Counted from the first letter of the stretch, positions 5,346-35,631 are shown. The stretch is DNA of 35,631 nt from Pyrinomonadaceae bacterium (GCA_035563275.1 DATMVI010000520.1:1-35631), one strand, 5' to 3'. The notes: generated from the letters alone by a model not told the origin. Program-made: numbers and translations.

Positions 5346-5539
5346 CGCTCCGCCCCGTCCGCGCCGGCGCGAGGGCCTCCGACGACGGAGAGCCGGGGCG
5401 GAAAGAAGTGTCTGAAGGTACTTGCGCGACCCGCAACCTCGGCTGACAAGGTCGGAGTTGTATCCCTCCCGGCGGACTTGGGAGTCGTGCCCCTCCGACC
5501 TTTCGGAACGTCTCCAACCGGGGCTCCGTGCGCCTCGTG

Positions 5540-13785: not shown

Positions 13786-16700
13786 TCAGGCGCGCCGGAT
13801 GGTGATGGCCAGCTTCGCGCCGCCGATGTCAACCTCCTCCGTGTGCTCCGGCCCGGCGAGCCGGTTGTATTCGAGCGCTGAGATTAAGCCTTCGCCCTTG
13901 ATGAAATCCTCGTGGTCGCGGACGGCTTTGAGCAGCGCTGCGTCGGCGTCGAGGCCGAGCGCGATGTGGTCGGACACGTCCATGCCGGCGTTCTTGCGCG
14001 CGTTCTGCACGTGGCGCAGCACGTCGCGCGCCTGCCCCTCCGCGATCAGTTCCGGCGTCAGGTTCGTGTTGAGCGCGACGAGGTAGCTGCCCTCCTCGAC
14101 GGCCGCGTAACCTTCGGGACTCTTCACGTCGACGAGGAAGGCGTCGGGCGCGAACTCCATCGTCTCGTCGCCGACGCGGACGGGCGTCTTCTCGCCGCGC
14201 CGGACGTTGACGGCGACCTGCCGCGGGTCAACCTCCTTCAGGGCTTTGACGAACTGCGGCAGCCTGCCGCCGAGAGCGCGGCCGACGACCGGCAGGTTGG
14301 GCCGCAGCGAGTAGCTGACGAAGTTCGTGTCGAAGTCGAGCCGCGTCACCTGCTTGGCGTTGAGTTCTTCCTTGATCAACTCCTCGAACTTGCCGAGCGC
14401 GGCCTGCTCCCTCTCGGTGCCGACGCGCACCAGAATCTCGGGCAGGGGCTGGCGCACCTTGACCGACGCGCCGGCGCGCGCCGCGCGGCCGAGGTCGATG
14501 ATCTTCAGCAGCAAGTCCATGTCGGCCAGCAGCGCCTCGTCAATCAGCGCGGGGTCGGCCGCGGGCCACTCGGCGAGGTGGACGGAGGCGGGCGCGTCCG
14601 GCTCGACGGCCCGCACGAGGTTCTGGTATATCGCCTCGGTGACGAAGGGCACCATCGGCGCGCCGAGCTTGCTGACCGTGACCAGCGCCTCGTAGAGCGT
14701 GAGGTAGGCGGCGCGCTTGTCGGCGTCGTCGGCGCTCTTCCAGAAGCGCCGGCGGTTGCGCCGCACGTACCAGTTCGAGAGGTCGCGGACGACGAACTCG
14801 TTGAGGGTGCGCGCGGCCGAGGTCACGTCGTACTCGTCGAGGCTGCGCGTGACCGACTCGGCGAGGCGGTGCAGCTTGGCCGTCAGCCAGCGGTCGATCT
14901 CCGGCCGCTCGGCGTGGGGCAGCGGCGTCCGCAGGTCGGGTTCGTCGAGGTTGGCGTAGAGCACGAAGAAGCCGTAGACGTTCCAGAGCGTGAGCAGGAA
15001 ATCCTTGACCACCTCGGAGACGTGCGCGGGGTTGAAGCTCTTGTTCGCGTCGGGCGGGCTGGAGGTGTACAGGTACCAGCGCAGCGCGTCGGCCCCCTGC
15101 TCGTTGAGCACGCTCCACGGGTCTACCGCGTTGCCCCTCGACTTCGACATCTTCTGGCCCTTCGCGTCGTTGATGAAGCCGAGCACGATGCAGGTCTTGA
15201 AGGCCGAGGTCTCGGGAAACACGTGGGCGAGCGCGCCGGCCGCGACGCCGCGCTCGGCGTCGGCCCGCGCCGTCAGCAGCGTGGCCAGCGCGTGCAGGCT
15301 GTAGAACCAGCCGCGCGTCTGATCCATCGCCTCGCAGATGTAGTCCGCCGGGAAGCGCGACGGCAGCAGGCCGGCGTTCTCGAAGGGATAGTGCCACTGC
15401 GCGTAGGGCATCGCGCCCGACTCGAACCAAACGTCCACGGTGTCGGGCACGCGGCGGTAGGTCTGCCCGCCGCGCTCGAAGGTGATCTCGTCGATGTAGG
15501 GGCGGTGGAGGTCGAGCGTGTCGAGCCGCCGGCCCGTCAGCTCTTCGAGCTCGGCGACGCCCGAGACGCAGATGCTCTCCTCGCCGTTCTCGCTGACCCA
15601 GACGGGCAGCGGCGCGCCCCAGTACCTCTCGCGCGAGATGGCCCAGTCGATGTTGTTCTCCAGCCACTTGCCGAAGCGGCCGGTCTTGATGTTCTCGGGC
15701 AGCCAGTTGATGCGGTAGTTGTTCTCCAGCAGCTTGTCCTTGACGGCGGTGGTTTTGATGTACCAACTGGTCTTGGCGTAGAAGAGCAGCGGCGAGTCGT
15801 CGCGCCAGCAGAAGGGGTAGGCGTGTTTGACGCGCTCGGAGCGGTAGAGCAGGCCGCGGCGTCTGAGGTCGCGCGAGATGAGCTTGTCGGCCTCCTTGAA
15901 GAAGAGGCCCGCGTAAGGCCCGGCGGCCTCGGGCGCGTCCGGCGCTCTGACCTCCGGGTGCACCTTGCCCGTGCGGTCGACGGAGAAGAGGGTCGGCAGC
16001 CCGTGCCTGCGCCCGACTTCGAGGTCGCCGTAGGCCGGGGCGATGTGGACGATGCCCGTGCCGTCTTCGACGGAGACGAAGTCGTCGGCGATGACGGCGA
16101 AGGCCCGCGCGAGGTCTTCGCTTTCGGGCGCGCGGCCCGAGAGGATTTGCTCGTAGGTCAGCCCGGCCAGCGCCTCGCCGGGGAACGCGCGCAGCAGTTT
16201 GTAGTTGCCCTCGCCGAACACGTCCGGGGCCAGCGCGGCGGCGAGGATGTAAAGCTCCGTCTCCCCCTCCTGCCCGTGCGCGGCGGGCGCTTCGAAGAGG
16301 CCGTACTCGGCGTCGGCGCGCACGGCGAGCGCGGTGTTGGCGCCGAGCGTCCACGGCGTCGTCGTCCACGCGAGGAAGGAGACTCGTCTCCCCGCCTCCC
16401 CCGGCGTCAACAGCCCGGCCCCCGCGAGCGCGTCGCGGCGGGCCGGGAACTTCGGCCACACCGAGGGGTCGTCCACGTCCTCCTTCATGCCCTGCGAGAC
16501 TTCGTGGTCGGCGAGGCTCGTGTTGCAGCGCGGGCAGTGCATCGTGGTCTTGTAATCCTGATAGAGCAGGCCGCGCTCCCAGAAGGATTTCAGGATCCAC
16601 CAGCACGTCTCGATGTAGCCGTTCTCGTAGGTGATGTAGGCGCGGTCGAGGTCAACCCAGAAGCCGATGCGCTCGGTCAGCCGGTTCCAGTCCTGTATGT

Positions 16701-17079
16701 AGCGGAAGACCGACTCGCGGCAGAGCCGGTTGAACTCGGCGATGCCGAACTTCTCGATGTCCTGCTTGCCGGTCGAGCCAATCTCCTTCTCGATCTCGAC
16801 CTCGACGGGCAGGCCGTGCGTGTCCCAGCCGCCGCGCCGCTCGACGCGGAAGCCGCGCATCGTCTTGTAGCGCGGGAAGAGGTCTTTGAAGGCGCGGGCG
16901 CTGACGTGGTGGATGCCGGGCCGGCCGTTGGCCGTCGGCGGCCCCTCGTAGAAGACGTAGTCGCCCCGCGGCGCGGGCTTCCCGACCGAGGCCGCGAAAA
17001 TCTCGTGCTCCCGCCAGAAGCGGATGATCTCTTCTTCTAATTGTGGGAAGCTGACGTTCCGGTTGATGCTCTTGAACAT
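13786..17079 (-). CDS. ileS: isoleucine--tRNA ligase (long, type 2-like form)
   Basis: 1097 aa. HIGH-type motif PPTANGRPGIHHV, KMSKS motif KMSKSRGN, CP1 editing region, WHYPFEN. Confidence 0.95.
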   Translation of the reverse strand: MFKSINRNVSFPQLEEEIIRFWREHEIFAASVGKPAPRGDYVFYEGPPTANGRPGIHHVSARAFKDLFPRYKTMRGFRVERRGGWDTHGLPVEVEIEKEIGSTGKQDIEKFGIAEFNRLCRESVFRYIQDWNRLTERIGFWVDLDRAYITYENGYIETCWWILKSFWERGLLYQDYKTTMHCPRCNTSLADHEVSQGMKEDVDDPSVWPKFPARRDALAGAGLLTPGEAGRRVSFLAWTTTPWTLGANTALAVRADAEYGLFEAPAAHGQEGETELYILAAALAPDVFGEGNYKLLRAFPGEALAGLTYEQILSGRAPESEDLARAFAVIADDFVSVEDGTGIVHIAPAYGDLEVGRRHGLPTLFSVDRTGKVHPEVRAPDAPEAAGPYAGLFFKEADKLISRDLRRRGLLYRSERVKHAYPFCWRDDSPLLFYAKTSWYIKTTAVKDKLLENNYRINWLPENIKTGRFGKWLENNIDWAISRERYWGAPLPVWVSENGEESICVSGVAELEELTGRRLDTLDLHRPYIDEITFERGGQTYRRVPDTVDVWFESGAMPYAQWHYPFENAGLLPSRFPADYICEAMDQTRGWFYSLHALATLLTARADAERGVAAGALAHVFPETSAFKTCIVLGFINDAKGQKMSKSRGNAVDPWSVLNEQGADALRWYLYTSSPPDANKSFNPAHVSEVVKDFLLTLWNVYGFFVLYANLDEPDLRTPLPHAERPEIDRWLTAKLHRLAESVTRSLDEYDVTSAARTLNEFVVRDLSNWYVRRNRRRFWKSADDADKRAAYLTLYEALVTVSKLGAPMVPFVTEAIYQNLVRAVEPDAPASVHLAEWPAADPALIDEALLADMDLLLKIIDLGRAARAGASVKVRQPLPEILVRVGTEREQAALGKFEELIKEELNAKQVTRLDFDTNFVSYSLRPNLPVVGRALGGRLPQFVKALKEVDPRQVAVNVRRGEKTPVRVGDETMEFAPDAFLVDVKSPEGYAAVEEGSYLVALNTNLTPELIAEGQARDVLRHVQNARKNAGMDVSDHIALGLDADAALLKAVRDHEDFIKGEGLISALEYNRLAGPEHTEEVDIGGAKLAITIRRA

Positions 17080-17124
17080 AAAACAGAAGTGCCGGCTCGC
17101 GCCGCGCGGCCCCGACTGGTTATA

Positions 17125-17262
17125 ACTGTGCGGTCAGGATTGGCCGCGGCGCGGCGGTTGAAATGGTTCGACCGCCCCGAACGGGAGCGGGATTAATCTT
17201 GCTGAACGAAATGACCGTGTTGACGAATATAATCTCCCCGGTTGACTTTAGCAACAGCCTGC
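17125..17262 (+). repeat. copy B of the dispersed intergenic element (see 2461-2615)
   Basis: Same blocks and orientation as copy A. TATAAT lies at 17228-17233. It sits between divergent ileS (start 17079) and lysS (start 17356). Confidence 0.8.
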
Positions 17263-17355
17263 CGCGGCGGCGCGCGCGGGGCCGAAACGGCGCGGCGGCG
17301 AGACTTGCCTCGGGCGGCGAAGCGTGATTAAGTTGCTGGAATTTCGGATGAGCTT

Positions 17356-19023
17356 ATGAGCAGATCGAAGAACTGGATCGAACAGACCGCCGACAAGGTC
17401 GAGGAGTTCGCGCGCCAGCGGAAGGGCGACGGCGCGAAGATCGTCTGCGCGTCGGGCATCAGCCCTTCCGGGCCGATTCACCTCGGCAACCTCCGCGAGA
17501 TCATCACCGTCCACCTCGTCACCGAGGAGTTGCGGCGGCGCGGGCGCGAGGCCGAACACATCCACTCGTGGGACGACTTCGACCGCCTGCGCAAAGTGCC
17601 GGCCGGCGTGCCGCAGGAGTTCGCGCAGCACATCGGCCGCCCCATCAGCGACATCCCCGACCCGGCCGGCGAGTACGAGTCTTACGCCATGCGCTTCATG
17701 TCCGAGTTCGAGCGCAGCGTCGCCCGGCTCGGCATCGGCCCGCGCTACGTGCGCCAGTCCGTCGCCTACCGCCGCGGCGACTACCGGGAACAGATCAGGG
17801 TCGCGATGCGGAAGCGGTTCGAGATTTTCGACATCCTCGTCAAGTACCAGACGCCCGGCCGCCACGAGCGGCCCGCCGAGGAGCGCCGCGCCGAGTACTA
17901 CCCCTTCAAGGTTTATTGCGAGGACTGCGGGCGGGACACGACGGTCATCGAAGCCTACGACGACGCGGCCTCGACCGTCTCTTACGCGTGCCAGTTCCGC
18001 GAGTACCGCGGCTCGTTCAGCCTCGGCGAGAAGGTCGCCGGCAAGCTCGTCTGGAAGGTGGACTGGCCGATGCGCTGGAGCTACGAGGCGGTCGACTTCG
18101 AGCCGGGCGGCGAGGATCACTCCGCGCCGGGCAGCAGCTACACCGTCGGCAAGCAGCTCGTGAAGGAAATCTACGGCGGCGCCGCGCCCTACTTCATCGG
18201 CTACGCCTTCGTCGGGCTCGCCGGCCGCTCGAAAATCTCCAGCTCCTTCGGGACGAGCGCGACGCCCGAGGCGGCCTTGGACATCCTCGAGCCGTGCATC
18301 GTCCGCTGGCTCTACATCCGCCGTAACGCCGGGCAGAAGTTCGACATCAACTTCGGGCAGGAGGTGGTGCGCCTCTACGACGAGTGGGACTCGTTCGTCG
18401 CGCGCGTGGCCGCGGGCAAGGCGGACGAGGCCGAACGGCTCGTCTACGAGCGCTGCGTCCGCACGTCCGAGGGCGAGGTGGCGAGGTCGAAGTTGACCAT
18501 CCCCTTTCGCATCCTCAGCTCGGCGGCCGACATCACGCAGGGTAACGTCGAACAGATTCTCCGCATCGCCTCCGACCACCTCGAAGACCCGCCCCCGCGC
18601 GAAGAATTGAGGCGGTCGCTTGAGCCGCGCCTGACCTGCGCCATCAACTGGGCCGTCAACTACCTGCCCGAGGACGAGCGGACGCGCATCAGGTCGGGCC
18701 ACGACCGCGCGACCTACGAGTCGCTCGACGAGGCGCACCGCCGCGGCATCCGGATGCTGCTCGAACGGCTCGACGAGTACTGGAGCCTGCAAGGTCTGAC
18801 GACGCTCGTCTACGGCGTCCCCAAACTCCTCCTCGGCCTGCCCATCGACGCGCCGCCTAGCGAGGAGATCAAGCCGGTGCAGCGCGGCTTCTTCATCGCC
18901 GTCTACCAACTCCTCTGCGGGAGCGACACCGGCCCGCGCCTCCCCACCCTCTTCCTCTCGCTCGGCAAGGAACGCCTGCGGGCGCTCTTAACACCGGGCG
19001 GAGGGGACGGGGAGCAGGCTTAG
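17356..19023 (+). CDS. lysS: lysine--tRNA ligase, class I
   Basis: 555 aa. SGISPSGPIHLGNLREI (class I HIGH-like) and overall class I LysRS organisation, with KISSSFG in the KMSKS position. Confidence 0.85.
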   Translation: MSRSKNWIEQTADKVEEFARQRKGDGAKIVCASGISPSGPIHLGNLREIITVHLVTEELRRRGREAEHIHSWDDFDRLRKVPAGVPQEFAQHIGRPISDIPDPAGEYESYAMRFMSEFERSVARLGIGPRYVRQSVAYRRGDYREQIRVAMRKRFEIFDILVKYQTPGRHERPAEERRAEYYPFKVYCEDCGRDTTVIEAYDDAASTVSYACQFREYRGSFSLGEKVAGKLVWKVDWPMRWSYEAVDFEPGGEDHSAPGSSYTVGKQLVKEIYGGAAPYFIGYAFVGLAGRSKISSSFGTSATPEAALDILEPCIVRWLYIRRNAGQKFDINFGQEVVRLYDEWDSFVARVAAGKADEAERLVYERCVRTSEGEVARSKLTIPFRILSSAADITQGNVEQILRIASDHLEDPPPREELRRSLEPRLTCAINWAVNYLPEDERTRIRSGHDRATYESLDEAHRRGIRMLLERLDEYWSLQGLTTLVYGVPKLLLGLPIDAPPSEEIKPVQRGFFIAVYQLLCGSDTGPRLPTLFLSLGKERLRALLTPGGGDGEQA

Positions 19024-19092: not shown

Positions 19093-20142
19093 CTACCCGC
19101 CGGCCTCCCCTTCCTCCGCGGGCTTCCTCATGCGCGCCGAGACTTTGCTGCCGTGCTTGTCGGCCTTGACGGTGATGCGCTGGACGTAGACCCGGGTCGT
19201 CGCCGCGTTCTCGTGATCCAAAGCCTCCTGCGCTTCCAGATAACTGCCGGTCTCCTCGGCGACGATGCGCGCGTAGGTGTGACGCGTCTGGTGGACGTGG
19301 ACGTGGCCGATGCCGGCCTCCGCCGCGTAGAGCTTGAGGTTCTCGGCGAAGGAGCGCGACGAGAGCGGCGCGCCCGGCTTGCCGGCGCGGTCGTGGCGCG
19401 TCCAGAGCGGGCGGGGCGAGCCGAGCACGTCCTCGCGCCCCGCCGCCCTGAGGTAGGCGACCAGCGCCTCGTAGGCCGCCGCATCGCCCACCTCGCGGCC
19501 GACGAACTTCCCGCCTTTGCGCCGGTACTTGATGACGAGCCGGCCGCCCGCGCGTTCGAGGTCGCTGCCCCTGAGCGAGATCACCTCGCTGCGGCGCAGG
19601 CCCGTCAGGAAGAAGAAGAGCAGCAGCGCGTAGTCGCGCTTGCCGACGACCGAGCCGGCCTCGGCCCGCGCGCGCGCGGCGTCGAGCAGGCGGTTCATCT
19701 CGTCGTCGGAGAGCGCCTTCGTCAGCTCCGACTGGTAGGGTCGCGGGTAGCGCGGGCGGGCCTGCGCCGCGGGGTTGGCGCGGATGTGCGCGGAGAGTTG
19801 CGGGTCGCTCATCAGCCAGCGGTAGAAGGCCGAGACGCGCGAGACGCGCGCGTAGACGGTGGCCGGCTTGAGGCCGCGCGCCTCCATGTCGGCGCGCCAG
19901 CGCGCCACGTCCTCCGGCCCCACGTCGCCGGGGTGCTTGGCCGCGAACTCGAAGAAGTTGACGACGGCCTGCACCTTGTCGCGCAGCTTGTCGCGGCGGT
20001 CTAAGGTCTCGGGGCGCGTGTTGGCGTCGGCCCAGAGCGTGACGGCGCGGCGCAGCGCCTCGGCCGAGTCGCGCGCGGCGAGGGCGTTCGTGGCCGGCGT
20101 GGCCCCGCCCTCAGACTCGCGCCCGCTCTCGTCCGTCATCAT
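19093..20142 (-). CDS. tyrosine-type site-specific recombinase/integrase
   Basis: 349 aa. N-terminal SAM-like core-binding region. Catalytic-domain motifs: GLRRSEV (Arg I), HQTRHTYA (His-x-x-Arg), HENAATTRVYV (His/Tyr). Confidence 0.85.
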   Translation of the reverse strand: MMTDESGRESEGGATPATNALAARDSAEALRRAVTLWADANTRPETLDRRDKLRDKVQAVVNFFEFAAKHPGDVGPEDVARWRADMEARGLKPATVYARVSRVSAFYRWLMSDPQLSAHIRANPAAQARPRYPRPYQSELTKALSDDEMNRLLDAARARAEAGSVVGKRDYALLLFFFLTGLRRSEVISLRGSDLERAGGRLVIKYRRKGGKFVGREVGDAAAYEALVAYLRAAGREDVLGSPRPLWTRHDRAGKPGAPLSSRSFAENLKLYAAEAGIGHVHVHQTRHTYARIVAEETGSYLEAQEALDHENAATTRVYVQRITVKADKHGSKVSARMRKPAEEGEAGG

Positions 20143-28065: not shown

Positions 28066-28266
28066 ATGAACGACACCCACCGACCCGACGATCTGATCCG
28101 CACCACCGAAGCGCGCAAACTGCTCGGCGTGAGTACGGTGAAGATGACGCAGCTCATCAAGCACGGGGTCTTCACGATCTACGAAGACCTCCTCGACCGC
28201 CGCGTCAAGCTCATCCGCCGCTCCGAAGTCGAGGCCCTGAAACACAGGAGCGTGAAAGCCGCATGA
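28066..28266 (+). CDS. small helix-turn-helix DNA-binding protein (excisionase/MerR-like HTH_17 type)
   Basis: 66 aa. TTEARKLLGVSTVKMTQLIKHGVF. Its stop overlaps the parA start (ATGA). Confidence 0.6.
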   Translation: MNDTHRPDDLIRTTEARKLLGVSTVKMTQLIKHGVFTIYEDLLDRRVKLIRRSEVEALKHRSVKAA

Positions 28267-29084
28267 AGACCATCGCCATCGCCGTCGCCAACCAGAAGGG
28301 CGGGGTCGGTAAGACCACCCTCACCCGCGAGTTGTCGGCCTGCTGCGCCCTGCGCGGCTTCCAGACGCTGGCCATAGACTGCGACCCGCAGGGCAACCTG
28401 ACTTCCTCGTGGGTTGACCCGGACGTTTACGAGGCCACCCTCTCGCACGTCCTGATCGAGCCGGAGTTGCCGACCGGCGTGAAGGCCGAACCCCTGCCGC
28501 TCGACGATGCCATTGTCGAAAGCCCGGTCGAGGGCCTCGACCTCGTCCCGGCCGACATCCGCCTCGCGCGCTTCGAGATGCAGCCCGACTACCTCACGCA
28601 CCGCCTGCGCAATCAGGTGCAGGAGCACGGGCGCGCTTACGACCTCGTCTTCATCGACTGCCCGCCGCAGCTCGGTAAGCTGCTGACGGCCGCCCTCTAC
28701 TCGGCCGACTACGTCGTCGTCCCCTGCGCGGCCGACGCGATGGGGCTTCAGGGACTCTCCGACCTCGCCTTCACCATCGAGCAGGTGCGGAAGAACGTCA
28801 ACTCCGGCCTCCAGATGCTCGGGGCCGTCATCAACCTCTACAAACCTTCGCGCAACCTCTCGGCCGAGTCGCGGCAGGCCGTCGAGGCCGCGGTCGGGCT
28901 GGTGGGCCACGTCTTCGACACCAACCTGCACGACTACTCGAAAGTGGCCGAGGCACCCTCGCAGAAGCTCCCGGCCGTGCTCTACGCCAAGTCGCACCGC
29001 GCCGCCGACCAGCTCTGGAGCCTGACCGACGAAGTGCTCGACAAGCTGAAGCTTTCCCGGCAGAAGATCGCCGCCGTCAAGTGA
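28263..29084 (+). CDS. parA: ParA/Soj-family partition ATPase
   Basis: 273 aa. Deviant Walker A NQKGGVGKTT, then DCDPQGN and IDCPP. Confidence 0.9.
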   Translation: MKTIAIAVANQKGGVGKTTLTRELSACCALRGFQTLAIDCDPQGNLTSSWVDPDVYEATLSHVLIEPELPTGVKAEPLPLDDAIVESPVEGLDLVPADIRLARFEMQPDYLTHRLRNQVQEHGRAYDLVFIDCPPQLGKLLTAALYSADYVVVPCAADAMGLQGLSDLAFTIEQVRKNVNSGLQMLGAVINLYKPSRNLSAESRQAVEAAVGLVGHVFDTNLHDYSKVAEAPSQKLPAVLYAKSHRAADQLWSLTDEVLDKLKLSRQKIAAVK

Positions 29085-29092
29085 GGTCGTAG

Positions 29093-30217
29093 ATGGCCGA
29101 GACTAAGCCTAAAGCGAACAATTCCCTGCGGACGCCGAAGCCGAAAAAACTGGGCCTCTCGGTTCCGCCCGCGCTGCGCCTGCCGCACGAAGAACTGATT
29201 CGGGCGGCACAGACCCCGCCCGAACCGGCCGAGCTGCTTGAATCAACTATGCCTAGTCAGACTAGTCTGACTAGTCTGACTAGGCATACTCAGGACGCCT
29301 CCGAAGCGACGCCGGTCTCCCCCGTCCGCGATTACACGAAAGTCGCCAACTCGATCACGCGCGAGGCGATCCCGGCCGGCGTCTTTAAAGGCAAGAGCAA
29401 ACAGCTTTACGACGCCCTCTACCAACTCACGCGCGGGGCCGTCGTCCCCGTCAGGAGCGTACGCATTTCGCGCCCCCGCCTGATGAAGAAAGCCGGCATC
29501 GGCGCGCGCGTCACTTTCGAGGCCAACGTCGCGCACCTACAGGCGGAGGGACTCGTCACCGTGCGCCACATCGCCGGCGAGCACGAGGGCAACGAGTACA
29601 CCGTCCACCTGCCCGAAGAGACGGCAGAGAGTATGACTAGTCATACTAGTATGCCTAGTCTGACTAGTCAGACTAGGCATGCCCAGAAACTAGACAGACT
29701 AGTCAGACTAGAAACTAGTCAGACTAGGCATACTTCAATTGCTGAAGAATCAACAACTTACGAGGTGCCTAAGACTTCTTTTAAGACTAATACTGAGAAA
29801 ACTGATGATGATGAGGCTCTCGCCGATTTCGTCGCCGCCGTGAGACAGGCGACAAGGGAGATCACCGGCAGGGAATTGTCGGTTGCGGAGAGGCAGCGTT
29901 GGGCCGAGTTGGCCGAAGTGCTCGTCACCGAGTTGAAGATCGCCGCGGGGCGCACGACCGTCTCATCCGTCCCGGCATTCCTCGCGGAGCACCTGCGCCG
30001 GCGCCTCTGGAAAAAGGAGAAGCGGCAGATTGAGGCTGAGGCGGCCGACGCGGCGTCGCCCGCGCCGACCCCGAAGGTGGACGCCGGGCAGTGCCCGGAC
30101 TGCTTCGGGACGGGAATGTGGTATCCGCAGGGGTACGAAAAGGGGGTTGCGCGCTGCCGCCACGAAAAGCTGACGCCCGAGGTAGGGGACTCAGACCCGG
30201 AGCAGACGCCGGCCTGA
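29093..30217 (+). CDS. initiator-like or centromere-binding-like protein with winged-helix region, internal DNA iterons and C-terminal CxxC...C zinc-ribbon-like motif
   Basis: 374 aa. The wHTH-like segment is ISRPRLMKKAGIGARVTFEANVAHLQAEGLVTV. Peptide repeats TSLTSLTRH / TSQTRH come from the 9-bp DNA repeats. C-terminus has CPDCFGTGMWYP...CRHEK. No family was recognised with certainty. Confidence 0.4.
   Translation: MAETKPKANNSLRTPKPKKLGLSVPPALRLPHEELIRAAQTPPEPAELLESTMPSQTSLTSLTRHTQDASEATPVSPVRDYTKVANSITREAIPAGVFKGKSKQLYDALYQLTRGAVVPVRSVRISRPRLMKKAGIGARVTFEANVAHLQAEGLVTVRHIAGEHEGNEYTVHLPEETAESMTSHTSMPSLTSQTRHAQKLDRLVRLETSQTRHTSIAEESTTYEVPKTSFKTNTEKTDDDEALADFVAAVRQATREITGRELSVAERQRWAELAEVLVTELKIAAGRTTVSSVPAFLAEHLRRRLWKKEKRQIEAEAADAASPAPTPKVDAGQCPDCFGTGMWYPQGYEKGVARCRHEKLTPEVGDSDPEQTPA
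29248..29288. repeat. 41-bp near-perfect palindrome built from 9-bp CTAGTCWGA units (iteron cluster 1)
   Basis: tatgcctagtcagactagtctgactagtctgactaggcata. It contains 4 CTAG tetramers and only the central 2 nt break the symmetry. Confidence 0.85.
29633..29732. repeat. iteron cluster 2: ten CTAG-centred 9-bp-phased units, including a perfect 30-bp palindrome (29651-29680)
   Basis: atgcctagtctgactagtcagactaggcat is self-complementary. Flanking units are ctagtcata, ctagtatgc, ctagacaga, ctagtcaga, ctagaaa, ctagtcaga, ctaggcata. It is followed by an AT-rich tract at 29733-29815. Confidence 0.85.
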
Positions 30218-30257
30218 GACTGCACCGCGCGAAACGCCGAGGCGAGGCCGGCCCGCG

Positions 30258-31043
30258 CTAAATATTCAGCTTTTTCGCGCCTTCCTGCCGTTTTTGCCTT
30301 CTCCGCTCAATGTGGAGCAGGGCGATGCTCACCTGATCGACGGCCGGCAACAGTTCGTCCACGTCTTCGTCTGTTAACTCCTCCGGCCTGATCTCCCTCA
30401 AAGCCCGCCCGATGCGCCGCAACTCCTCGAAAAAGAGGTGACTTGAGTCGAGCGGGTCGGCCTCCAGCAACTCGTCCGCCTTCTCGACGGCGGCCATCTC
30501 GGTCGCCAAAGGGTCAGGCTCTCTCAACTCGCCCAGAGCCTCTTTGACCCTCTCGCGCAGCATCATGCCGGTCTCCTGCTTCAGCAGGTGCGTCTCAAGC
30601 AGCTTCCGCCGATGGGTGCGCGCCTCCGATTCCGTGCAGCCGAGTCGCTTGGCGCTGAGGCGCGCGAGCTGGTGCGCCTCGAAGAGGTTGAGGTCTCCGC
30701 GCTCAAGCGGCTCCCGCACGTCCTGAGGGAAATCCAGAATCGGGAGGTACTGGCCGACGAAACTCCTCACCGAGACCCTCGTTTCACGCGACAAGATGTC
30801 GCGCAGGCTGGAGTCTACGCGCAGGAGCAGTTCGCGCGCGTGGCGCGGCGGCCGCCCGCGGCGGCTTTCGGTCGGCTGGCGCATGTAGAGGCCGCGCACC
30901 GAGTTGAGCAGAGAAGATAAGTTCTTGTGCGAGCGCGGGATGGCATCGGGCAGGGAAGCGCGCAGGTGTTCCAGCACGCGGCCGACGCCTTCGGTCGAGG
31001 CCAGCGGGTCTACACGTCTCGTGCGACGCCTCGTGGTTTTCAA
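30258..31043 (-). CDS. hypothetical protein, tentatively ParB/KorB-like HTH protein
   Basis: 261 aa. FPQDVREPLERGDLNLFEAHQLARL resembles the ParB segment LPxxVxxLIxxGxLSxGHARxLLxL. It has an acidic C-terminus. No clear ParB-box (GERR) was seen. Confidence 0.3.
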   Translation of the reverse strand: MKTTRRRTRRVDPLASTEGVGRVLEHLRASLPDAIPRSHKNLSSLLNSVRGLYMRQPTESRRGRPPRHARELLLRVDSSLRDILSRETRVSVRSFVGQYLPILDFPQDVREPLERGDLNLFEAHQLARLSAKRLGCTESEARTHRRKLLETHLLKQETGMMLRERVKEALGELREPDPLATEMAAVEKADELLEADPLDSSHLFFEELRRIGRALREIRPEELTDEDVDELLPAVDQVSIALLHIERRRQKRQEGAKKLNI

Positions 31044-31425: not shown

Positions 31426-31623
31426 ATGCCGGCGCCCAACCAGTCCGCCTTCCTGTTCGATGGGCGAGCGCCGATAGGCGTGCTCAGCTCAAACTTATTT
31501 ATCCTCGCCGCGCCGGTGCTGCCGGTGCCTGTGGCCGGGCCTTGCCCCGGCGTGGGCCACCGCGTGGGCGCACGCCCGGTGGGCGGCGGGGTGACCTCTA
31601 TTCCAGAGGCGCCAAATGTCTAA
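31426..31623 (+). CDS. small ORF (65 aa), possible coupled peptide upstream of the C-A gene
   Basis: RBS-like gagg lies 8 nt upstream. GC3 is about 78% (51 of 65 codons). Its stop overlaps the ATG of the next gene by 8 nt (aATGtcTAA). The product is MPAPNQSAFLFDGRAPIGVLSSNLFILAAPVLPVPVAGPCPGVGHRVGARPVGGGVTSIPEAPNV. Confidence 0.3.
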   Translation: MPAPNQSAFLFDGRAPIGVLSSNLFILAAPVLPVPVAGPCPGVGHRVGARPVGGGVTSIPEAPNV

Positions 31624-34600
31624 CGCAATTTTTGAAGATAGAGGGTTTCCGGATACGAGGCGAGAAGAGCTGTCGGCCCGGCGGGCGCGCCTGTCGGAGG
31701 CGAAGCTGCGGATTCTGGCCGGCAGACTGGAAGGGAAACTCAGTCCGCGGGAGGACGCCGCGCCCGCCGACCCGCCCGGCCGAGAGAGCGCCGACGAGCC
31801 GTCGCTGCTTCAGGAGTTCGCGCTGTGGCACGACAGGTGGGCGCGCGAACAGTCCGTGCCCGTCAAGCGCCGCCAATACTACCGCCTGCTGCAAGTGACC
31901 GGCCCGCTTGACGTTGGCTGCCTCGAACGGAGCTTTCAAGAAGTCCATCGCCGCCACGACATCCTGAACTCGACCTTCCCCTTCGCCGACGGGAAGTTCG
32001 TCAGGGCCGCGCGCCCGGGGAAGACCTTCGCCCTGCCGTCGCTCGACCTGTGCCACCTGCCCGAAGGTGAGCGCGAGGCGGCGGCCCGCTCGCTCTGCCT
32101 CGCGGAGATTCTAAAGGATTATGACCCGGCCGGCGATGACCTACTGCGCGCCCTGCTGTTGAAGATCGACGACAAGCGACACCTGCTGCTGTTCGTCATG
32201 CAGCACTTGGCCTTCGACGGTAAGTCTCAGGATTTGTTAATCCACGAAATCTCACAAAACTACATGGCGCTGGCGACGAAGAGTCCTTCCCCGCTGCCGC
32301 CGCTGCGCGCCGGCTATCAGGACTTCGCGCGCTGGCAGAGGGCGCGCGCCGAGAGGGGCCGCGGCTCGCAGCGCCTGCTCTCGTATTGGAAGGGGCAGTT
32401 CGGCGGCGAGTCCGTGCCCGACGCCGCGGCGTTGGAATTGCCGTTCACGCTCCCGCAGACGCGGCCGGCCTCTTACAGAACCGGCGTCGAGGCGCTGCGC
32501 GTGTCGGGGTCGCTCTACGCCTCGCTGACGGAGCTGGCGCGGCGCGCGGACGTGACGATGTTCGTCCTGCTGCTGGCCGTCATCAACACCTTGCTTTACC
32601 GCTACACGGGCAGGGGAAGCATCTACGTCTGCACGAGCGCGTCCGGCCGCGGCAGGGAAGAGTTCGCCGACCTCATCGGGAAATTCAGCTCCTGCCTCTG
32701 GTTCCGCACGCAGCTCGCGGGCGGGCTGAGCTTTCTGGAACTGCTGCGACGCACGCGCGAGTCCACGCTGAGCGCCTTCGACCATCAGGACTTGCCTTAC
32801 CCCGCCCTGCTGGAGAGCCTGCGCCCGGCTTCCGCCCGGCCGCCGCAAATCTCGACGGCGCCGATGGTCTGGTTCAATTTCACTCCGCGGGCCAAAGCCG
32901 AGGCGCGGCCCGAGCCTTCGTCCGGCGGGCCGCCCGTCAGGTTCCGCAGGGTGTCGATCGACGGGGCGGACTTGGAACAGAGCCTCGGCCTCTCCATCTC
33001 GGCCACCGAGAAGGCCAACGGGTTGGGCGTTAACATTCGTTACGAGCGCGACCTCTACGACCCGCGGGACATGGCCCGGATGGCCGAGCACTTCCACGCC
33101 CTGCTCGAAACCGTGAGCGAGCGCCCCCACCAACGTCTCTCGGAGATGCGGTTGTTGACGGCCGCCGAAGAGCGTCTGCTGTCGGAATGGAATCGCGCGG
33201 AGAGTCACGCCGCCGCCGAGAGCCGCTGCCTCCACGAACTGTTCGAGTCGCAGGCGGAGCGGACGCCGGAGGCGCCGGCGTTGATCTCCGGGACGGGGCA
33301 GTTGACTTACCGCGAATTGAACGAGAGGAGCAGCCGCCTCGCCCGCCGTCTCAGGCAACGCGGGGTCGGGCCGGAGCGGGTCGTCGGCCTCCGTCTGGGG
33401 TCGTCGGCTGACGTGGCCGTGGCCGCGCTCGCCGTCTGGAAGGCCGGCGGCGCCTGCGCGCTCTTCGAGGCCGTGCCCTCCGGCCAGTGGCTCGCGGCAG
33501 CGTTTGAGAGCGGGGAACTCGCCCTGTTGCTCGACGGCGAGGGCTTAACGGACGAGTCGGATTCCCGCCCCGGCCGTGCGCTGCCTCCCGGGGGGGAGCA
33601 CGGGAGTGTCTCGCCGGAAAGCGCAGACCACGCGGCCCAGACCGCGGCGCCGTGGAATCGGGCCGTCGTGAGTTACCGGCCGGACGCGCGGGGGCGTGTG
33701 AGGGCCGCGGCCGTCACTCACGAAGCAGTCTGGAGCAGACTGCGCGGGCTGCAAAAGCGCATCCTGCTCAACGGGGCCGACCGTTTTCTGCTCCAACCGG
33801 CGACCGACCACGAGGCGTTAGTGAGCAACCTGCTCTGGCCCCTTTCGCGCGGGGCCGGCTTCGTCTTCGACGACGACGAACACGCGCTCGCGCGGCACGC
33901 CGTTACCGTCTGGCGCACCACGCCCCCGCTGCTCGAAGATTGGTTGAGCGGACGCGGCCGGGGCGACGGCGCGGCCTTGCGGCGGGTGATTTGCAGCGTC
34001 GAGCGGCTCAGCCCCGCCCTGAAGGCGCGCGCTCTGGCCTTGCCGGGAGTCGAATTCTCCAGCCTCTACCGCGCGGGCGAGGGCGTGGGTGAAGTGGCCG
34101 TCTACTCCCCCACGCGGGAGCAGGCCGAGAGCACCGCCTCCATCGGGCGCCCGCTGGTGGATTTCAAACTGCATCTGCTCGACGCCCAACTGCGGCCCGT
34201 CCCCGTGGGGCTCCCCGGCGAACTCCACGTCGGCGGACTGGCAGTCTCGCAAACCCGCACGGACTCGGCCCGAGCGGCGGCGCAGAAATTTATCCCCGAC
34301 CCCTTCGGCGAGCGCCCGGGCGCGAGACTTTTAGCCACGGGCGACGTGGCGCGTTACTTGCCGGACGGCAGCCTTGAGCTGCTCGGCCGCAAGTCCGAGT
34401 TCGTCAGGCGGCGCGGCTTCGTGTTCCATCTCGGCCGCGTCGAGAAGGCGCTTGAATCTCACCCCCTCGTCCGGAGGGCCGTGGTCTTATTCAAAGACGA
34501 TCCGCGCGGCCCCGAGCAGTTGGTCGCCTGCCTGACCTGCGTCGGCGAAGGGGTGACGGCGGCAGAGTTGGATGACTCCCTCAGGCGCAGGCAGCCCGGC

Positions 34601-34735
34601 TACGTGCTGCCGACCGCTTATATCTTTTTCGATAAATTCCCTCTGACGAATGAAGGCGGGATAGACCGCGAGGCTCTGCTCCGGCTTCAGGCCGTCGAGG
34701 TGTCCGCAGCCCCGAGTTGGCTCGAATGGGCCTGA
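31616..34735 (+). CDS. NRPS-like condensation-adenylation didomain protein with degenerate A-domain core motifs and no carrier (T/PCP) domain
   Basis: 1039 aa. C-domain motifs: RRHDILNSTF (C2), VMQHLAFDGKS (C3, HHxxxDG with first His replaced by Gln), YQDFARW (C4), HQDLPYP (C6). A-domain motifs: LTYRELNERS (A1). A3 is SYRPDARGRVRA instead of YTSGSTGxPKG. A5 is SLYRAGE instead of NxYGPTE. A7 is ATGD. A8 is GRKSEFVRRRGFVFHLGRVE. A10 is NEGGIDR instead of NGKxDR. The protein ends ~25 aa after A10. Confidence 0.8.
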   Translation: MSNAIFEDRGFPDTRREELSARRARLSEAKLRILAGRLEGKLSPREDAAPADPPGRESADEPSLLQEFALWHDRWAREQSVPVKRRQYYRLLQVTGPLDVGCLERSFQEVHRRHDILNSTFPFADGKFVRAARPGKTFALPSLDLCHLPEGEREAAARSLCLAEILKDYDPAGDDLLRALLLKIDDKRHLLLFVMQHLAFDGKSQDLLIHEISQNYMALATKSPSPLPPLRAGYQDFARWQRARAERGRGSQRLLSYWKGQFGGESVPDAAALELPFTLPQTRPASYRTGVEALRVSGSLYASLTELARRADVTMFVLLLAVINTLLYRYTGRGSIYVCTSASGRGREEFADLIGKFSSCLWFRTQLAGGLSFLELLRRTRESTLSAFDHQDLPYPALLESLRPASARPPQISTAPMVWFNFTPRAKAEARPEPSSGGPPVRFRRVSIDGADLEQSLGLSISATEKANGLGVNIRYERDLYDPRDMARMAEHFHALLETVSERPHQRLSEMRLLTAAEERLLSEWNRAESHAAAESRCLHELFESQAERTPEAPALISGTGQLTYRELNERSSRLARRLRQRGVGPERVVGLRLGSSADVAVAALAVWKAGGACALFEAVPSGQWLAAAFESGELALLLDGEGLTDESDSRPGRALPPGGEHGSVSPESADHAAQTAAPWNRAVVSYRPDARGRVRAAAVTHEAVWSRLRGLQKRILLNGADRFLLQPATDHEALVSNLLWPLSRGAGFVFDDDEHALARHAVTVWRTTPPLLEDWLSGRGRGDGAALRRVICSVERLSPALKARALALPGVEFSSLYRAGEGVGEVAVYSPTREQAESTASIGRPLVDFKLHLLDAQLRPVPVGLPGELHVGGLAVSQTRTDSARAAAQKFIPDPFGERPGARLLATGDVARYLPDGSLELLGRKSEFVRRRGFVFHLGRVEKALESHPLVRRAVVLFKDDPRGPEQLVACLTCVGEGVTAAELDDSLRRRQPGYVLPTAYIFFDKFPLTNEGGIDREALLRLQAVEVSAAPSWLEWA

Positions 34736-34796: not shown

Positions 34797-35216
34797 ATGT
34801 CCAGCCAAATCATCGTCGTCAATCATCTCTTCACGCAGGCCACCTCCCCCGAACCCCACGAGGCGGACGTTCGCGGGCTTCTGTTAGGGGAACACTTTTC
34901 CACGCACCCCAACCAAGCCATCTTCTGGTCGGGCGGGGCCGAAGCCGAACAGGAGGCGGCGGCCATCGCGCGTCAGGAGGGGAAAGTAACTTTCGGCATG
35001 ACCGTCGGGGGCCGCTCGATCACCTCGCTGGTTCATAGTCTGACCCCGGAGCAGGCGGCCCACGTCTACAGGTTCGGCTCCACCCATTTCGCCGCCGCGG
35101 CGGCGGGCGAGGTGGAGGTGGTCGTCAGAAAATACAACGCCGCCAGCCTCTTCGTCAGAACCGAACTCCCGATGCTGCTGAAAAATTTGGGGGTCAAACG
35201 CATCACCTTCCGTTGA
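34797..35216 (+). CDS. small ADP-ribosyl cyclase/CD38-like (NAD glycohydrolase fold) protein, tentative
   Basis: 139 aa. NQAIFWSGG parallels Aplysia cyclase NKVMFWSGV. VTFGMTVGGRSITSL parallels ITLEDTLPGYMLNSL. AAAGEVEVVV parallels SAEGEVTYMV. SLFVRTELPMLL parallels SFFGKYELPNL, which holds the catalytic Glu. The comparison is from remembered sequences only. Confidence 0.35.
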   Translation: MSSQIIVVNHLFTQATSPEPHEADVRGLLLGEHFSTHPNQAIFWSGGAEAEQEAAAIARQEGKVTFGMTVGGRSITSLVHSLTPEQAAHVYRFGSTHFAAAAAGEVEVVVRKYNAASLFVRTELPMLLKNLGVKRITFR

Positions 35217-35490: not shown

Positions 35491-35631
35491 ATGAAGATCT
35501 TACTGTACAACCCGGACAACGGGGTGACGCGCAACTTCATGCCGCACCTCTGGATGTTCCTGCTCCAAGCCCTCACCCCGCCCGGCCACGAGGTCATCCT
35601 CGTCGACGGCAACGCCCGCGCCATGGACGAG
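35491..35631 (+). CDS. B12-binding-domain radical SAM protein, N-terminal fragment (continues beyond window)
   Basis: Not in the track because it is open-ended. The ATG at 35491 is preceded by ggaagga. MKILLYNPDNGVTRNFMPHLWMFLLQALTPPGHEVILVDGNARAMDE is the typical N-terminus of class B (cobalamin-domain) rSAM enzymes. Confidence 0.55.
   Translation, partial: MKILLYNPDNGVTRNFMPHLWMFLLQALTPPGHEVILVDGNARAMDE

What the first reader, a model, noticed from the sequence alone, without database searches (positions are those of the whole stretch)
31616..34735. Carrier-less NRPS-like C-A protein with a decayed adenylation active site
The condensation domain keeps its catalytic core (QHLAFDG, with the second His and the Asp present). 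The adenylation domain aligns end to end with canonical A domains but has lost the residues needed for adenylation.
- The A3 P-loop YTSGSTGxPKG is SYRPDARGRVRA.
- A5 NxYGPTE is SLYRAGE.
- The A8 hinge GRxDxQVKIRG is GRKSEFVRRRG.
- The invariant A10 lysine (NGKxDR) is Gly (NEGGIDR).

No thiolation domain follows, and none is encoded nearby in the window. This does not fit a standard NRPS module. The A-like domain may be a substrate-binding or scaffolding pseudoenzyme, and the C domain may act on a free or ribosomal substrate. The locus sits immediately beside a replicon/partition module, so it may be mobile cargo.
Basis: partly seen in the sequence, partly recalled or inferred. Interest (0 to 1): 0.7.

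Follow-up and report, generated by a model that had tools for sequence, protein, structure and literature searches.

The report
Carrier-less NRPS module with dead adenylation
This is an intact 1,039-residue protein in which a peptide-bond-forming (condensation) domain is fused to an adenylation domain that has lost its ATP-handling residues, with no carrier domain; only one distant relative turned up in public data, so it looks like a rare but maintained offshoot of peptide-synthetase machinery rather than a broken gene.

Summary
ORF 31616-34735(+) encodes Condensation + AMP-binding + AMP-binding_C and no carrier domain. HMMER and MAFFT alignments confirm QHLAFDG in the C domain. They also confirm loss of A3 (SYRPDARGRVRA), A4 Asp, A5 Thr, the A8 Asp/Lys and the A10 Lys.

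No carrier domain is encoded anywhere in the 35.6-kb contig. The contig ends 896 nt downstream.

Only one relative was found among 5.8 billion protein clusters: P0002, 40% identical, from a genome of different GC content. It has the same C-A architecture without a T domain, the same QH motif, the same losses at A2/A3/A4/A8, and the same WxEW C-terminus. It keeps the A10 Lys. So adenylation was already lost in the common ancestor, yet a ~1000-codon ORF was maintained. This is not a pseudogene.

Family-specific substitutions are shared in the C domain and divergent in the A domain. This points to a constrained C domain and a relaxed, scaffold-like A domain.

Best reading (inferred, not shown): a trans-acting condensation enzyme derived from an LCL elongation module. 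Its remodelled acceptor-carrier site suggests an acceptor that is not carrier-bound.

Neighbours are an ADP-ribosyl-cyclase homologue and a B12 radical SAM enzyme here, and cREC/HIT in the relative. They hint at nucleotide-linked chemistry, unproven.

New variant of a known kind; moderate interest.

The parts
31616..34735 (+). Complete ORF, 1039 aa: a C-A* protein made of a condensation domain and a degenerate adenylation domain, with no carrier domain
31655..31729 (+). N-terminal helical pair (aa 14-38, ...RLSEAKLRILAGRL...). It matches the LSEAKRxLLxKxLxG motif found at the N-termini of C-starting NRPS subunits. Inferred to be a docking or communication element. Absent from the relative P0002.
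31802..33181 (+). Condensation domain (aa 63-522). Its closest solved relatives are LCL-type elongation C domains (Txo2, Txo1, TycC6, DhbF).
31802..31861 (+). Remodelled first helix / C1 motif (SLLQEFALWHDRWAREQSVP). It has a 5-residue insertion and W70L and Q74R, all shared with P0002. In canonical modules this helix is the docking site for the acceptor carrier domain.
   Evidence: review PMC10510592 section 2.3.1
32201..32221 (+). C3 catalytic motif QHLAFDG. The first His is replaced by Gln; the second His, the Asp and the Gly are kept. Identical in P0002.
33242..34390 (+). Degenerate A-core (aa 543-925). The fold is retained (Pfam 8e-40; AF2 model matches the Txo2 C-A structure). Only 48 of 90 canonically conserved columns are kept.
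33671..33706 (+). Remnant of the A3 P-loop, SYRPDARGRVRA, in place of YTSGSTGxPKG
34061..34081 (+). A5 remnant SLYRAGE. Tyr and Glu are kept; Asn, Pro and Thr are lost.
34385..34417 (+). A8 remnant GRKSEFVRRRG. The hinge Asp is replaced by Ser (also Ser in P0002) and the Lys by Arg.
34391..34681 (+). A-sub domain (aa 926-1022), retained
34640..34669 (+). A10 remnant PLTNEGGIDR. The invariant Lys is replaced by Gly. P0002 keeps the Lys.
34712..34732 (+). C-terminal tail PSWLEWA. The W-x-E-W ending is conserved in P0002 (HDWVEWP). Both proteins stop here, where the T domain of a normal module would begin.
34797..35216 (+). Downstream ORF of 139 aa, a homologue of bacterial ADP-ribosyl cyclase (ARC) toxin domains. 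The catalytic Glu is kept (E123). The second Glu is replaced by G67, as in the non-toxic cyclase Nac1.
35491..35631 (+). Start of a B12-binding radical SAM gene, cut off by the end of the contig
31426..31623 (+). 65-aa ORF that overlaps the start codon of the C-A* gene by 8 nt. Gene callers call it in every assembly. It has no homologues and may be spurious.
28066..31043 (.). Upstream block of lower GC3: an HTH_17 (Xis-like) ORF of 66 aa, a ParA-like ATPase, a 374-aa unknown protein with a C-terminal Zn-ribbon, and a 261-aa unknown protein on the minus strand. A putative mobile-element backbone.

Best explanation
The gene encodes a functional, trans-acting condensation enzyme that evolved from an ordinary LCL-type NRPS elongation module (C-A-T).

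**What happened to the module.** The T domain was deleted and the adenylation chemistry was lost. The A-core and A-sub fold was kept as a non-catalytic structural partner, playing the role of the rigid C-A-core 'platform' of normal modules.

**How it would work.**
- The C domain (QHxxxDG with the catalytic His, Asp and Gly intact) takes an acyl or peptidyl thioester from a carrier protein encoded elsewhere.
- The N-terminal LSEAK...L.G helix, and perhaps the conserved WxEW tail, would dock that partner.
- The C domain transfers the acyl or peptidyl group to an acceptor that is not on a cis carrier. Most likely this is a soluble amine or alcohol, as with VibH-type free-standing C domains.
- The remodelled first helix, which is the acceptor-carrier docking site of canonical C domains, fits that change of acceptor.

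**Shown.**
- The architecture.
- The motif losses.
- The absence of a carrier domain in 35.6 + 8 kb.
- Conservation of the truncated architecture in a distant relative.
- Asymmetric constraint between the C and A domains.

**Inferred.**
- That the C domain is catalytically active.
- That the donor is supplied in trans.
- That the acceptor is free.
- That the A domain serves only as a scaffold.
For: 1. **Domain architecture and fold.** Pfam finds C + A + A_C and no T. The AF2 model has pLDDT 77.7 and pTM 0.76. Its best Foldseek matches are the Txo2 and Txo1 C-A didomains.

2. **Adenylation is lost.** A2, A3, A4, A8 and the LPxP linker are lost both here and in the only relative, P0002. A5 Asn, A6 ARGY and A10 Lys are lost additionally here. 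TIGR01733 scores below its cutoff for both proteins: 209 and 268 bits against 317.

3. **It is not a pseudogene.** P0002 is 40% identical, comes from a contig of 57% GC rather than 68%, and has no other shared genes. It has the same T-less architecture, ends at the same point with W-x-E-W, and has the same QHLAFDG. The chance of an open frame of this length is 1.5e-10 here and 6e-17 for P0002.

4. **Constraint is asymmetric.**
   - C domain: 45% identity between the two family members, against 30-39% to canonical proteins.
   - A-core: 37% between the two, no higher than P0002's identity to canonical proteins (35-40%).
   - At canonically conserved columns changed in both proteins, the two carry the same new residue in 10 of 14 C-domain columns, against 7 of 33 A-domain columns. 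Fisher p = 0.002.

5. **The shared C-domain changes include the first helix** (a 5-aa insertion, W70L, Q74R). The review PMC10510592 describes this helix as the acceptor-PCP docking surface, and places the donor-PCP interface mainly on the C-lobe.

6. **The first His is dispensable elsewhere.** Fungal terminal C domains use SHxxxD.

7. **The N-terminal motif is shared.** Many C-starting single-module NRPS proteins carry it, and so does the stand-alone thioesterase at 4425-5345(-) in the same contig.

8. **The C-A-core pair is described as a static foundation of NRPS modules** (PMC10510592). This gives a rationale for keeping a dead A domain.
Against: - No donor carrier protein, active A domain or NRPS partner is present in the window or in the relative's contig.
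- The gene neighbourhood is not conserved between the two members, so no pathway can be assigned.
- P0002 lacks the N-terminal helix.
- The whole A-sub domain is retained, and P0002 keeps the A10 Lys. A pure scaffold does not obviously need either.
- The comparison rests on two sequences.
- C-domain activity, donor and acceptor are all untested.
- The window's copy is more decayed than P0002 (48 against 58 of 90 conserved A-core columns kept), so this particular copy could be on its way to loss.
Confidence: 0.45

Rival explanations
1. Split module. The protein is the C-A* part of a module whose T domain is a separate small protein encoded elsewhere. That T domain is loaded in trans by a free-standing A domain. 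The C domain would then still use a carrier-bound acceptor, as in C-A*-T modules with vestigial A domains, but with T in trans.
For: - A-sub and the overall module geometry are retained.
- The contig ends 896 nt downstream, and every assembly breaks at the same point, so nearby genes are unseen.
- From memory, not checked here: NRPS systems with inactive A domains loaded in trans are known, for example in kutzneride biosynthesis.
Against: - No T or ACP is found in 35.6 kb here or 8 kb in the relative.
- The acceptor-PCP docking helix is the most remodelled part of the C domain in both members.
- The LPxP A-T linker motif and the A8 Asp/Lys, which are needed for the thiolation conformation, are lost in both.
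Confidence: 0.15
2. Non-functional relic. This is a truncated NRPS fragment carried on a mobile island, still open by luck or because it is recent, with no role for either domain.
For: - It lies in a stretch of lower GC3 next to Xis-like and ParA genes. The relative lies next to an IstB (IS21) fragment.
- Catalytic motifs have been lost progressively, more here than in P0002.
- The A domain evolves as if under relaxed constraint.
- No partner genes are present.
Against: - Two lineages at 40% identity keep the same truncated architecture, the same end point and about 1000 open codons.
- The C domain has shared derived residues and an intact catalytic His-Asp-Gly.
- The gene is nearly identical in assemblies from at least eight metagenome samples.
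- All three Pfam domains are still recognised.
Confidence: 0.15
3. Nucleotide-linked function. The A* domain has lost catalysis but keeps an adenine-nucleoside pocket and binds an NAD-derived or adenylate-type ligand (ADPr, cADPr, an acyl-AMP or CoA). It would work with the adjacent ADP-ribosyl-cyclase homologue here, and with cREC/HIT in the relative, either as a sensor or to present the acceptor to the C domain.
For: - The ORF 61 nt downstream is an ARC homologue with the catalytic Glu kept. The second Glu is replaced as in the cADPr-releasing Nac1.
- The relative is flanked by a cREC_REC protein and a HIT protein. cREC is predicted to process ADPr-derived cyclic phosphates (PMC9503650).
- By mapping to PheA numbering from established knowledge, the residues that contact adenine and ribose are kept in both members: A5 Tyr and Glu, A7 Asp, A8 Arg. 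The residues that handle phosphate and catalysis are lost.
Against: - There are only two loci, and the neighbouring genes are different families.
- HIT-GT2-GHMP kinase in the relative can equally be a sugar-nucleotide cassette.
- The A-core shows no family-specific conservation, as would be expected for a shared ligand pocket.
- The kept residues are also structural.
- In known modules the A pocket lies far from the C active site.
- PADLOC finds no defence-system match.
Confidence: 0.12
4. The A domain still adenylates a substrate by a non-canonical mechanism, and the product is passed to a carrier or nucleophile in trans.
For: - P0002 keeps the A10 Lys and the A6 and A7 motifs.
- The fold is intact.
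Against: - The whole P-loop, the A4 Asp, the A5 Thr and, in this protein, the A10 Lys are gone.
- The replacement residues are not conserved between the two members.
- The protein scores below the TIGR01733 cutoff.
Confidence: 0.05

Closest known systems
Canonical LCL-type NRPS elongation modules (C-A-T), for example Txo2/Txo1 of teixobactin synthetase, LgrA module 2, SrfA-C
   Same: - Same C + A-core + A-sub fold and domain order.
- These are the best sequence and structure matches.
- The catalytic His-xxx-Asp-Gly of the C domain is present.
- The A1, A6 (partly), A7 and A9 motifs are recognisable.
   Different: - No T domain.
- A2, A3, A4, A5 (Thr), A8 and A10, and the LPxP linker, are lost.
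- The first His of HHxxxDG is Gln.
- The first helix of the C domain is remodelled.
- The protein ends in a WxEW tail.
Free-standing condensation enzymes that use a soluble acceptor (VibH of vibriobactin synthesis, PDB 1L5A)
   Same: The C domain has no carrier in cis. The proposed logic is the same: a donor on a carrier in trans and an acceptor that is not carrier-bound (PMC10510592, for VibH).
   Different: - VibH is a C domain alone. Here a full-length dead A domain is retained.
- No sequence-level affinity to VibH was seen among the PDB hits.
- The acceptor here is unknown.
Vestigial or inactive A domains inside C-A*-T modules that are loaded in trans (reported for kutzneride synthetase; recalled from memory, and I could not confirm it in the held library)
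   Same: An A domain that has lost its core motifs is kept within an NRPS module.
   Different: Those modules keep their T domain in cis and belong to a multi-module synthetase. This one is a single stand-alone protein with no T domain.
NRPS domains turned into non-catalytic scaffolds: the X-domain of glycopeptide synthetases (PDB 4TX2) and the pseudo-A-sub domain of StsA
   Same: They set a precedent for an NRPS catalytic fold being kept for structure or recruitment only (PMC10510592).
   Different: In those cases the pseudo-domain is C-like (X) or a small A-sub mimic. Here it is a whole A domain, and the C domain looks active.
Fungal terminal condensation (C_T) domains with an SHxxxD motif
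   Same: The first His of the motif is replaced while the domain remains catalytic. They act on a carrier-bound donor without a carrier-bound acceptor.
   Different: C_T domains are fused after a T domain and cyclise intramolecularly. No specific sequence relationship was shown here.

Membership tests
NRPS condensation domain (Pfam PF00668) | Profile match above the curated threshold over the full domain | tested here: met
   219.6 bits against a cutoff of 30.6, covering profile positions 33-455 of 456
NRPS condensation domain (Pfam PF00668) | HHxxxDG active-site motif with the second His and the Asp | tested here: met
   QHLAFDG at 196-202. The second His, the Asp and the Gly are present; the first His is Gln.
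NRPS condensation domain (Pfam PF00668) | Two-lobed CAT-like fold | tested here: met
   The AF2 model has pLDDT around 90 over most of residues 90-400. Top Foldseek hits are C-A didomain structures.
LCL subtype of C domains | Closest to characterised LCL domains rather than DCL, starter, Cy, E or X | tested here: inconclusive
   The best PDB sequence hits are Txo2, Txo1, TycC6 and DhbF C2. No dedicated subtype classifier such as NaPDoS was available.
Functional amino-acid adenylation domain (TIGR01733 / ANL superfamily) | Score at or above the curated cutoff of the adenylation-domain model | tested here: not met
   209.1 bits against a cutoff of 317.4. P0002 scores 267.8, also below.
Functional amino-acid adenylation domain (TIGR01733 / ANL superfamily) | A3 P-loop (T/S)SG(S/T)TGxPKG | tested here: not met
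   RPDARGRVRA here and HADESGQPAL in P0002
Functional amino-acid adenylation domain (TIGR01733 / ANL superfamily) | A10 catalytic Lys | tested here: not met
   Gly at position 1015. P0002 keeps the Lys.
Functional amino-acid adenylation domain (TIGR01733 / ANL superfamily) | A4 Asp that binds the substrate alpha-amino group | tested here: not met
   Glu here and Val in P0002 at the aligned column
Functional amino-acid adenylation domain (TIGR01733 / ANL superfamily) | ANL fold (A-core plus A-sub) | tested here: met
   Pfam AMP-binding at 8e-40 and AMP-binding_C at 1.2e-6; AF2 model and Foldseek
Functional amino-acid adenylation domain (TIGR01733 / ANL superfamily) | ATP-dependent adenylate formation | not testable with these tools
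   Needs an ATP-PPi exchange or hydroxamate assay
Complete NRPS module (C-A-T) | Carrier (T/PCP) domain with the phosphopantetheinyl Ser, in cis | tested here: not met
   The protein stops 17 residues after A10. No PP-binding hit by Pfam, by regex or by a custom T-domain HMM in six frames.
Free-standing C enzymes with a soluble acceptor (VibH-like, functional class) | No carrier domain in cis for the acceptor | tested here: met
Free-standing C enzymes with a soluble acceptor (VibH-like, functional class) | Uses a non-carrier-bound nucleophile | not testable with these tools
   Only indirect evidence: the acceptor-PCP docking helix is remodelled in both family members.
   AAA_31 at 4.4e-42, CbiA, and PHROG ParA-like at 2.5e-53
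   - No Pfam, PHROG or NCBIfam hit for the neighbouring ORFs.
- No plasmid match for the 374-aa ORF.
- No terminal overlap in the contig.

The most novel reading that the evidence does not exclude
The dead A domain has been repurposed as an adenine-nucleotide-binding module for ADPr, cADPr, an acyl-adenylate or CoA. The C-A* protein would then work with the adjacent ADP-ribosyl-cyclase homologue here, and with cREC/HIT in the relative. It would either acylate or aminoacylate an NAD-derived nucleotide, or act as a cADPr-responsive acyltransferase. That would link NRPS condensation chemistry to NAD/ADPr signalling or conflict systems on mobile islands.
Probability: 0.1. Interest if true: 0.85.

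Novelty: new variant of a known kind. Interest (0 to 1): 0.5.

Why it matters
NRPS logic assumes that every C-A pair serves a carrier domain and that A domains are kept because they activate substrates. Here a whole A domain has been maintained over long divergence after losing its chemistry, and the carrier is absent altogether.

If the C domain is active, three things follow:
- It would be a natural example of a C-A-core 'platform' used purely to support a trans-acting condensation enzyme. This is useful for engineering stand-alone C catalysts.
- It would be a case study in how pseudoenzyme domains persist.
- Genome-mining tools would mis-score it as an incomplete or broken NRPS.

The adjacency to an ADP-ribosyl-cyclase homologue and a B12 radical SAM enzyme on a putative mobile island points to an uncharted small pathway. 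With only two family members and no biochemistry, the finding is a lead, not a discovery.

Tried and rejected
- **Exhaustive HMMER search** of 1.84 billion representatives with the two-member profile. It was uninformative, because ranking by total bits filled all 150 rows with 4000-8000-aa megasynthases.
- **Profile search with only the degenerate A2-A6 segment**. It returned short A-domain fragments with intact P-loops, not family members. It did show that the '4-aa insertion' after A5 is normal for one A-domain class.
- **Searches with family-specific motifs** (HDRWxxEQSVP, V[MF]QHLAFD and others). No relatives in genome contigs, metagenome contigs or viral contigs.
- **tblastn against plasmids.** Only generic NRPS at 34% identity or less. 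The 374-aa and 139-aa neighbours have no plasmid match.
- **PADLOC, PHROGs and NCBIfam** on the neighbouring unknown ORFs gave nothing useful.
- **dN/dS among the near-identical copies from other samples.** Only 2 synonymous and 2 non-synonymous differences exist, too few to use.
- **Shared neighbours between the two loci.** None besides the C-A* gene.
- **Single-sequence AF2 of the 139-aa ORF.** pLDDT 40, unusable. The PDB sequence search identified it instead.
- **Rfam** on the 570-nt upstream region and on both contigs: no hits.
- **Circular contig.** Rejected, as there is no terminal overlap.
- **tRNA attachment site.** No tRNA genes found.
- **The thioesterase ORF at 4425-5588(-) hiding a T domain in its N-terminal extension.** Rejected. 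The extension is upstream of the likely real start, and the T-domain HMM finds nothing.
- **Literature search for natural T-less C-A proteins with dead A domains.** Nothing relevant turned up. Absence from this library is not proof of novelty.

Full report
**1. What is there**

The finding's coordinates coincide exactly with an ORF, 31616-34735 on the + strand, of 1039 codons.
- Pfam finds a full-length Condensation domain (residues 92-522, 8.9e-65), an AMP-binding domain (543-878, 8e-40) and AMP-binding_C (942-1014, 1.2e-6). It finds no PP-binding domain.
- Against solved structures the protein aligns end to end with C-A portions of LgrA, Txo2, Txo1, McyB and SrfA-C.
- An AlphaFold2 model built on a 40-sequence alignment has mean pLDDT 77.7 and pTM 0.76. 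Its best Foldseek matches are the teixobactin Txo2 and Txo1 C-A didomain crystal structures.
- An open frame of this length at 68% GC has a chance probability of about 1.5e-10.

**2. The motif claims are correct**

The HMMER alignment to LgrA and MAFFT alignments to canonical C-A-T proteins agree on every motif.

| Motif | Canonical | This protein |
|---|---|---|
| C3 | HHxxxDG | QHLAFDG |
| A3 | YTSGSTGxPKG | SYRPDARGRVRA |
| A4 | FD | HE |
| A5 | YGPTE | YRAGE |
| A7 | TGD | kept |
| A8 | GRxDxQVKIRG | GRKSEFVRRRG |
| A10 | NGKxDR | NEGGIDR |

- The A2 tail (YVPLDP..P..R) and the LPxP A-T linker motif are also gone.
- NCBI's amino-acid adenylation model TIGR01733 scores 209 bits against a cutoff of 317.
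- One detail needs correcting. The apparent 4-residue insertion after A5 is normal for the A-domain class that reads YGPTEASVDV.

**3. No carrier domain**

- The protein ends 17 residues after A10.
- A regex for the GG(D/H)S core found nothing relevant in six frames.
- An HMM that I built from 34 T domains of the homologues found nothing. It was run without filters on all six-frame ORFs of the window and of the relative's contig.
- There is a limit to this. The window is an entire contig and stops 896 nt after the gene.
- Eight further assemblies of the same organism from other samples were retrieved. All break within the next gene except one (L006), which adds 726 nt and shows a B12-binding radical SAM enzyme.

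**4. Relatives**

- In the 5.8-billion-cluster protein collection, the only protein that stands out from ordinary NRPS is P0002. It has 995 aa, is 40% identical, and comes from a Logan assembly.
- With a two-sequence profile the two members score 2067 and 1989 bits. The next hit, a multi-module synthetase, scores 1011.
- P0002 comes from a contig of 57% GC that shares no other gene with the window.
- It has the same C-A architecture with no T domain and the same QHLAFDG. It has the same remodelled C1 region (HDRW..EQSVP..RRQY) and the same losses at A2, A3, A4 and A8. It ends at the same place with a W-x-E-W tail.
- It keeps the A10 Lys and the A6 ARGY.
- Motif scans of GTDB genomes, JGI metagenomes, viral contigs and plasmids found no further members.
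- An exhaustive HMMER search was swamped by megasynthases and is uninformative.

**5. Is it a relic?**

The truncated, adenylation-dead state was evidently present in the common ancestor of two proteins that have since diverged to 40% identity in different genomic backgrounds. Both remain open for about 1000 codons, and all three Pfam domains are still recognised. That argues strongly against a pseudogene at the family level.

Constraint is asymmetric between the two domains.
- The C domains are 45% identical to each other, against 30-39% to canonical C domains.
- The A-cores are 37% identical to each other. This is no more than P0002's identity to canonical A-cores (35-40%). Canonical A-cores are 46-60% identical among themselves.
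- Consider the columns that are at least 85% conserved in 38 canonical sequences and changed in both members. The two members carry the same new residue in 10 of 14 C-domain columns: W70L, Q74R, Y86R, T119S, L171P, H196Q, G339C, V399L, Q419W and D458G.
- In the A domain they carry the same new residue in only 7 of 33 such columns. Fisher p = 0.002.

So the C domain has acquired and kept a family-specific make-up. The A domain has drifted under fold-level constraint only.

**6. Mechanistic reading**

- The C domain is nearest to LCL-type elongation C domains and keeps the catalytic His, Asp and Gly.
- Replacement of the first His has precedent in fungal terminal C domains, which read SHxxxD (PMC10510592).
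[quoted passage not shown] It also places the donor carrier interface mainly on the C-lobe, and describes C and A-core as a static foundation.
- The helix most altered in this family is that N-terminal helix. The A8 and LPxP elements needed to deliver a cis carrier are gone.
- The N-terminus of the window protein carries the LSEAK...L.G helix. That helix is typical of C-starting NRPS subunits, and it also occurs on a stand-alone thioesterase 26 kb away in the same contig.
- I therefore favour a trans-acting condensation enzyme. It would receive a carrier-bound donor from another protein and transfer it to an acceptor that is not carrier-bound. The dead A domain would be kept as the structural partner of the C domain.
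- This is inference. No partner, donor or acceptor is identified, and P0002 lacks the N-terminal helix.

**7. Context**

- The gene lies in a stretch of lower GC (0.60-0.66 against about 0.70) and lower GC3.
- That stretch begins with an HTH_17 Xis-like ORF, a ParA-like ATPase and two unknown ORFs. A tyrosine integrase lies 11.5 kb upstream.
- A mobile island is plausible. A replicon is not shown: no initiator was found, there is no plasmid similarity, and the contig is not circular.
- Sixty-one nucleotides downstream is a 139-aa ORF homologous to bacterial ADP-ribosyl cyclase toxin domains: PDB 9ro8 at 4.9e-7, and 9ouf (Tac1) at 4.9e-5.
- In that ORF the essential Glu is kept (E123). The second Glu, which drives cADPr hydrolysis in Tac1, is Gly, as it is Ala in the non-toxic cyclase Nac1 (PMC12356396).
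- Next comes a B12 radical SAM gene.
- In the relative's contig the order is cREC_REC, C-A*, HIT, GT2 and GHMP kinase.
- So both members sit beside nucleotide-handling genes. The A domain keeps its adenine/ribose-contacting residues (A5 Tyr and Glu, A7 Asp, A8 Arg) while losing the phosphate-handling ones.
- This allows a more novel reading in which A* binds an NAD-derived or adenylate ligand.
- I rate that reading low. There are only two loci, with different neighbours. The HIT-GT2-kinase set may be a sugar-nucleotide cassette. The A-core shows no family-specific conservation.

**8. Verdict**

- The interpretation, a pseudoenzyme A domain with a C domain acting outside standard module logic, is partly supported and now rests on comparative evidence.
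- The substrate, the partner and the 'replicon' claim remain open.
- It is a new variant of a known kind: an NRPS-derived, T-less C-A* protein. It is rare, with two members found, and of moderate interest.

Noticed in passing
window 34797-35216 (+): A stand-alone 139-aa homologue of bacterial ADP-ribosyl cyclase toxin domains (PDB 9ro8 and 9ouf/Tac1). The catalytic Glu is kept (E123). The cADPr-hydrolysis Glu is replaced by Gly (G67), as in the non-toxic cyclase Nac1. It has no trafficking domain and no obvious immunity gene, so it is predicted to be a Nac-like cADPr-forming enzyme.
   Followed up: partly
window 35491-35631 (+); L006 10695-11561: A B12-binding radical SAM gene is cut off by the end of the contig. 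Of the nine assemblies that carry this region, eight stop within or just before the first ~140 nt of the gene; L006 extends it to 289 aa. This suggests a repeat or strain heterogeneity there.
   Followed up: partly
window 4425-5345 (-): A stand-alone thioesterase whose likely N-terminus (MSTNESLAGRLANLSRARRALLERRLKG) carries the same motif as the N-termini of C-starting NRPS subunits and of the C-A* protein. It sits among two rSAM/SPASM enzymes, GT2, GT4, DUF5672, DUF6817 and an epimerase (2.6-12.2 kb). This may be a separate biosynthetic cluster with no NRPS in sight.
   Followed up: no
L001 985-8091: Locus of the only relative: an IstB fragment, a cREC_REC protein, C-A* (P0002), a 244-aa HIT protein, GT2 and a GHMP kinase, with cREC_REC through the GHMP kinase all on one strand and short gaps after the C-A* gene. 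The HIT protein weakly matches PADLOC ThsC.
   Followed up: partly
window 13786-19023: A type-2 IleRS (with DUF5915) and a class I LysRS are encoded divergently next to each other. A tyrosine integrase follows at 19093-20142. GC3 of 0.93-0.95 suggests they are native housekeeping genes rather than resistance copies.
   Followed up: no
window 29093-30217 (+): A 374-aa ORF after ParA with no family match. It has repeated TS(L/Q)T(S/R)HT-like segments and a C-terminal CxxC...C.H zinc-ribbon-like motif. It could be the centromere-binding or replication protein of the island.
   Followed up: no
window 31426-31623 (+): A 65-aa ORF that overlaps the C-A* start codon by 8 nt and is called in every assembly. 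It has no homologues. It is either spurious or a small coupled peptide.
   Followed up: no
window 33593-33787 (aa 660-724 of the C-A* protein): All four differences among the near-identical copies from other samples (G660 synonymous, A674P, L717P, F724 synonymous) fall in the degenerate A2-A4 region of the A domain.
   Followed up: yes
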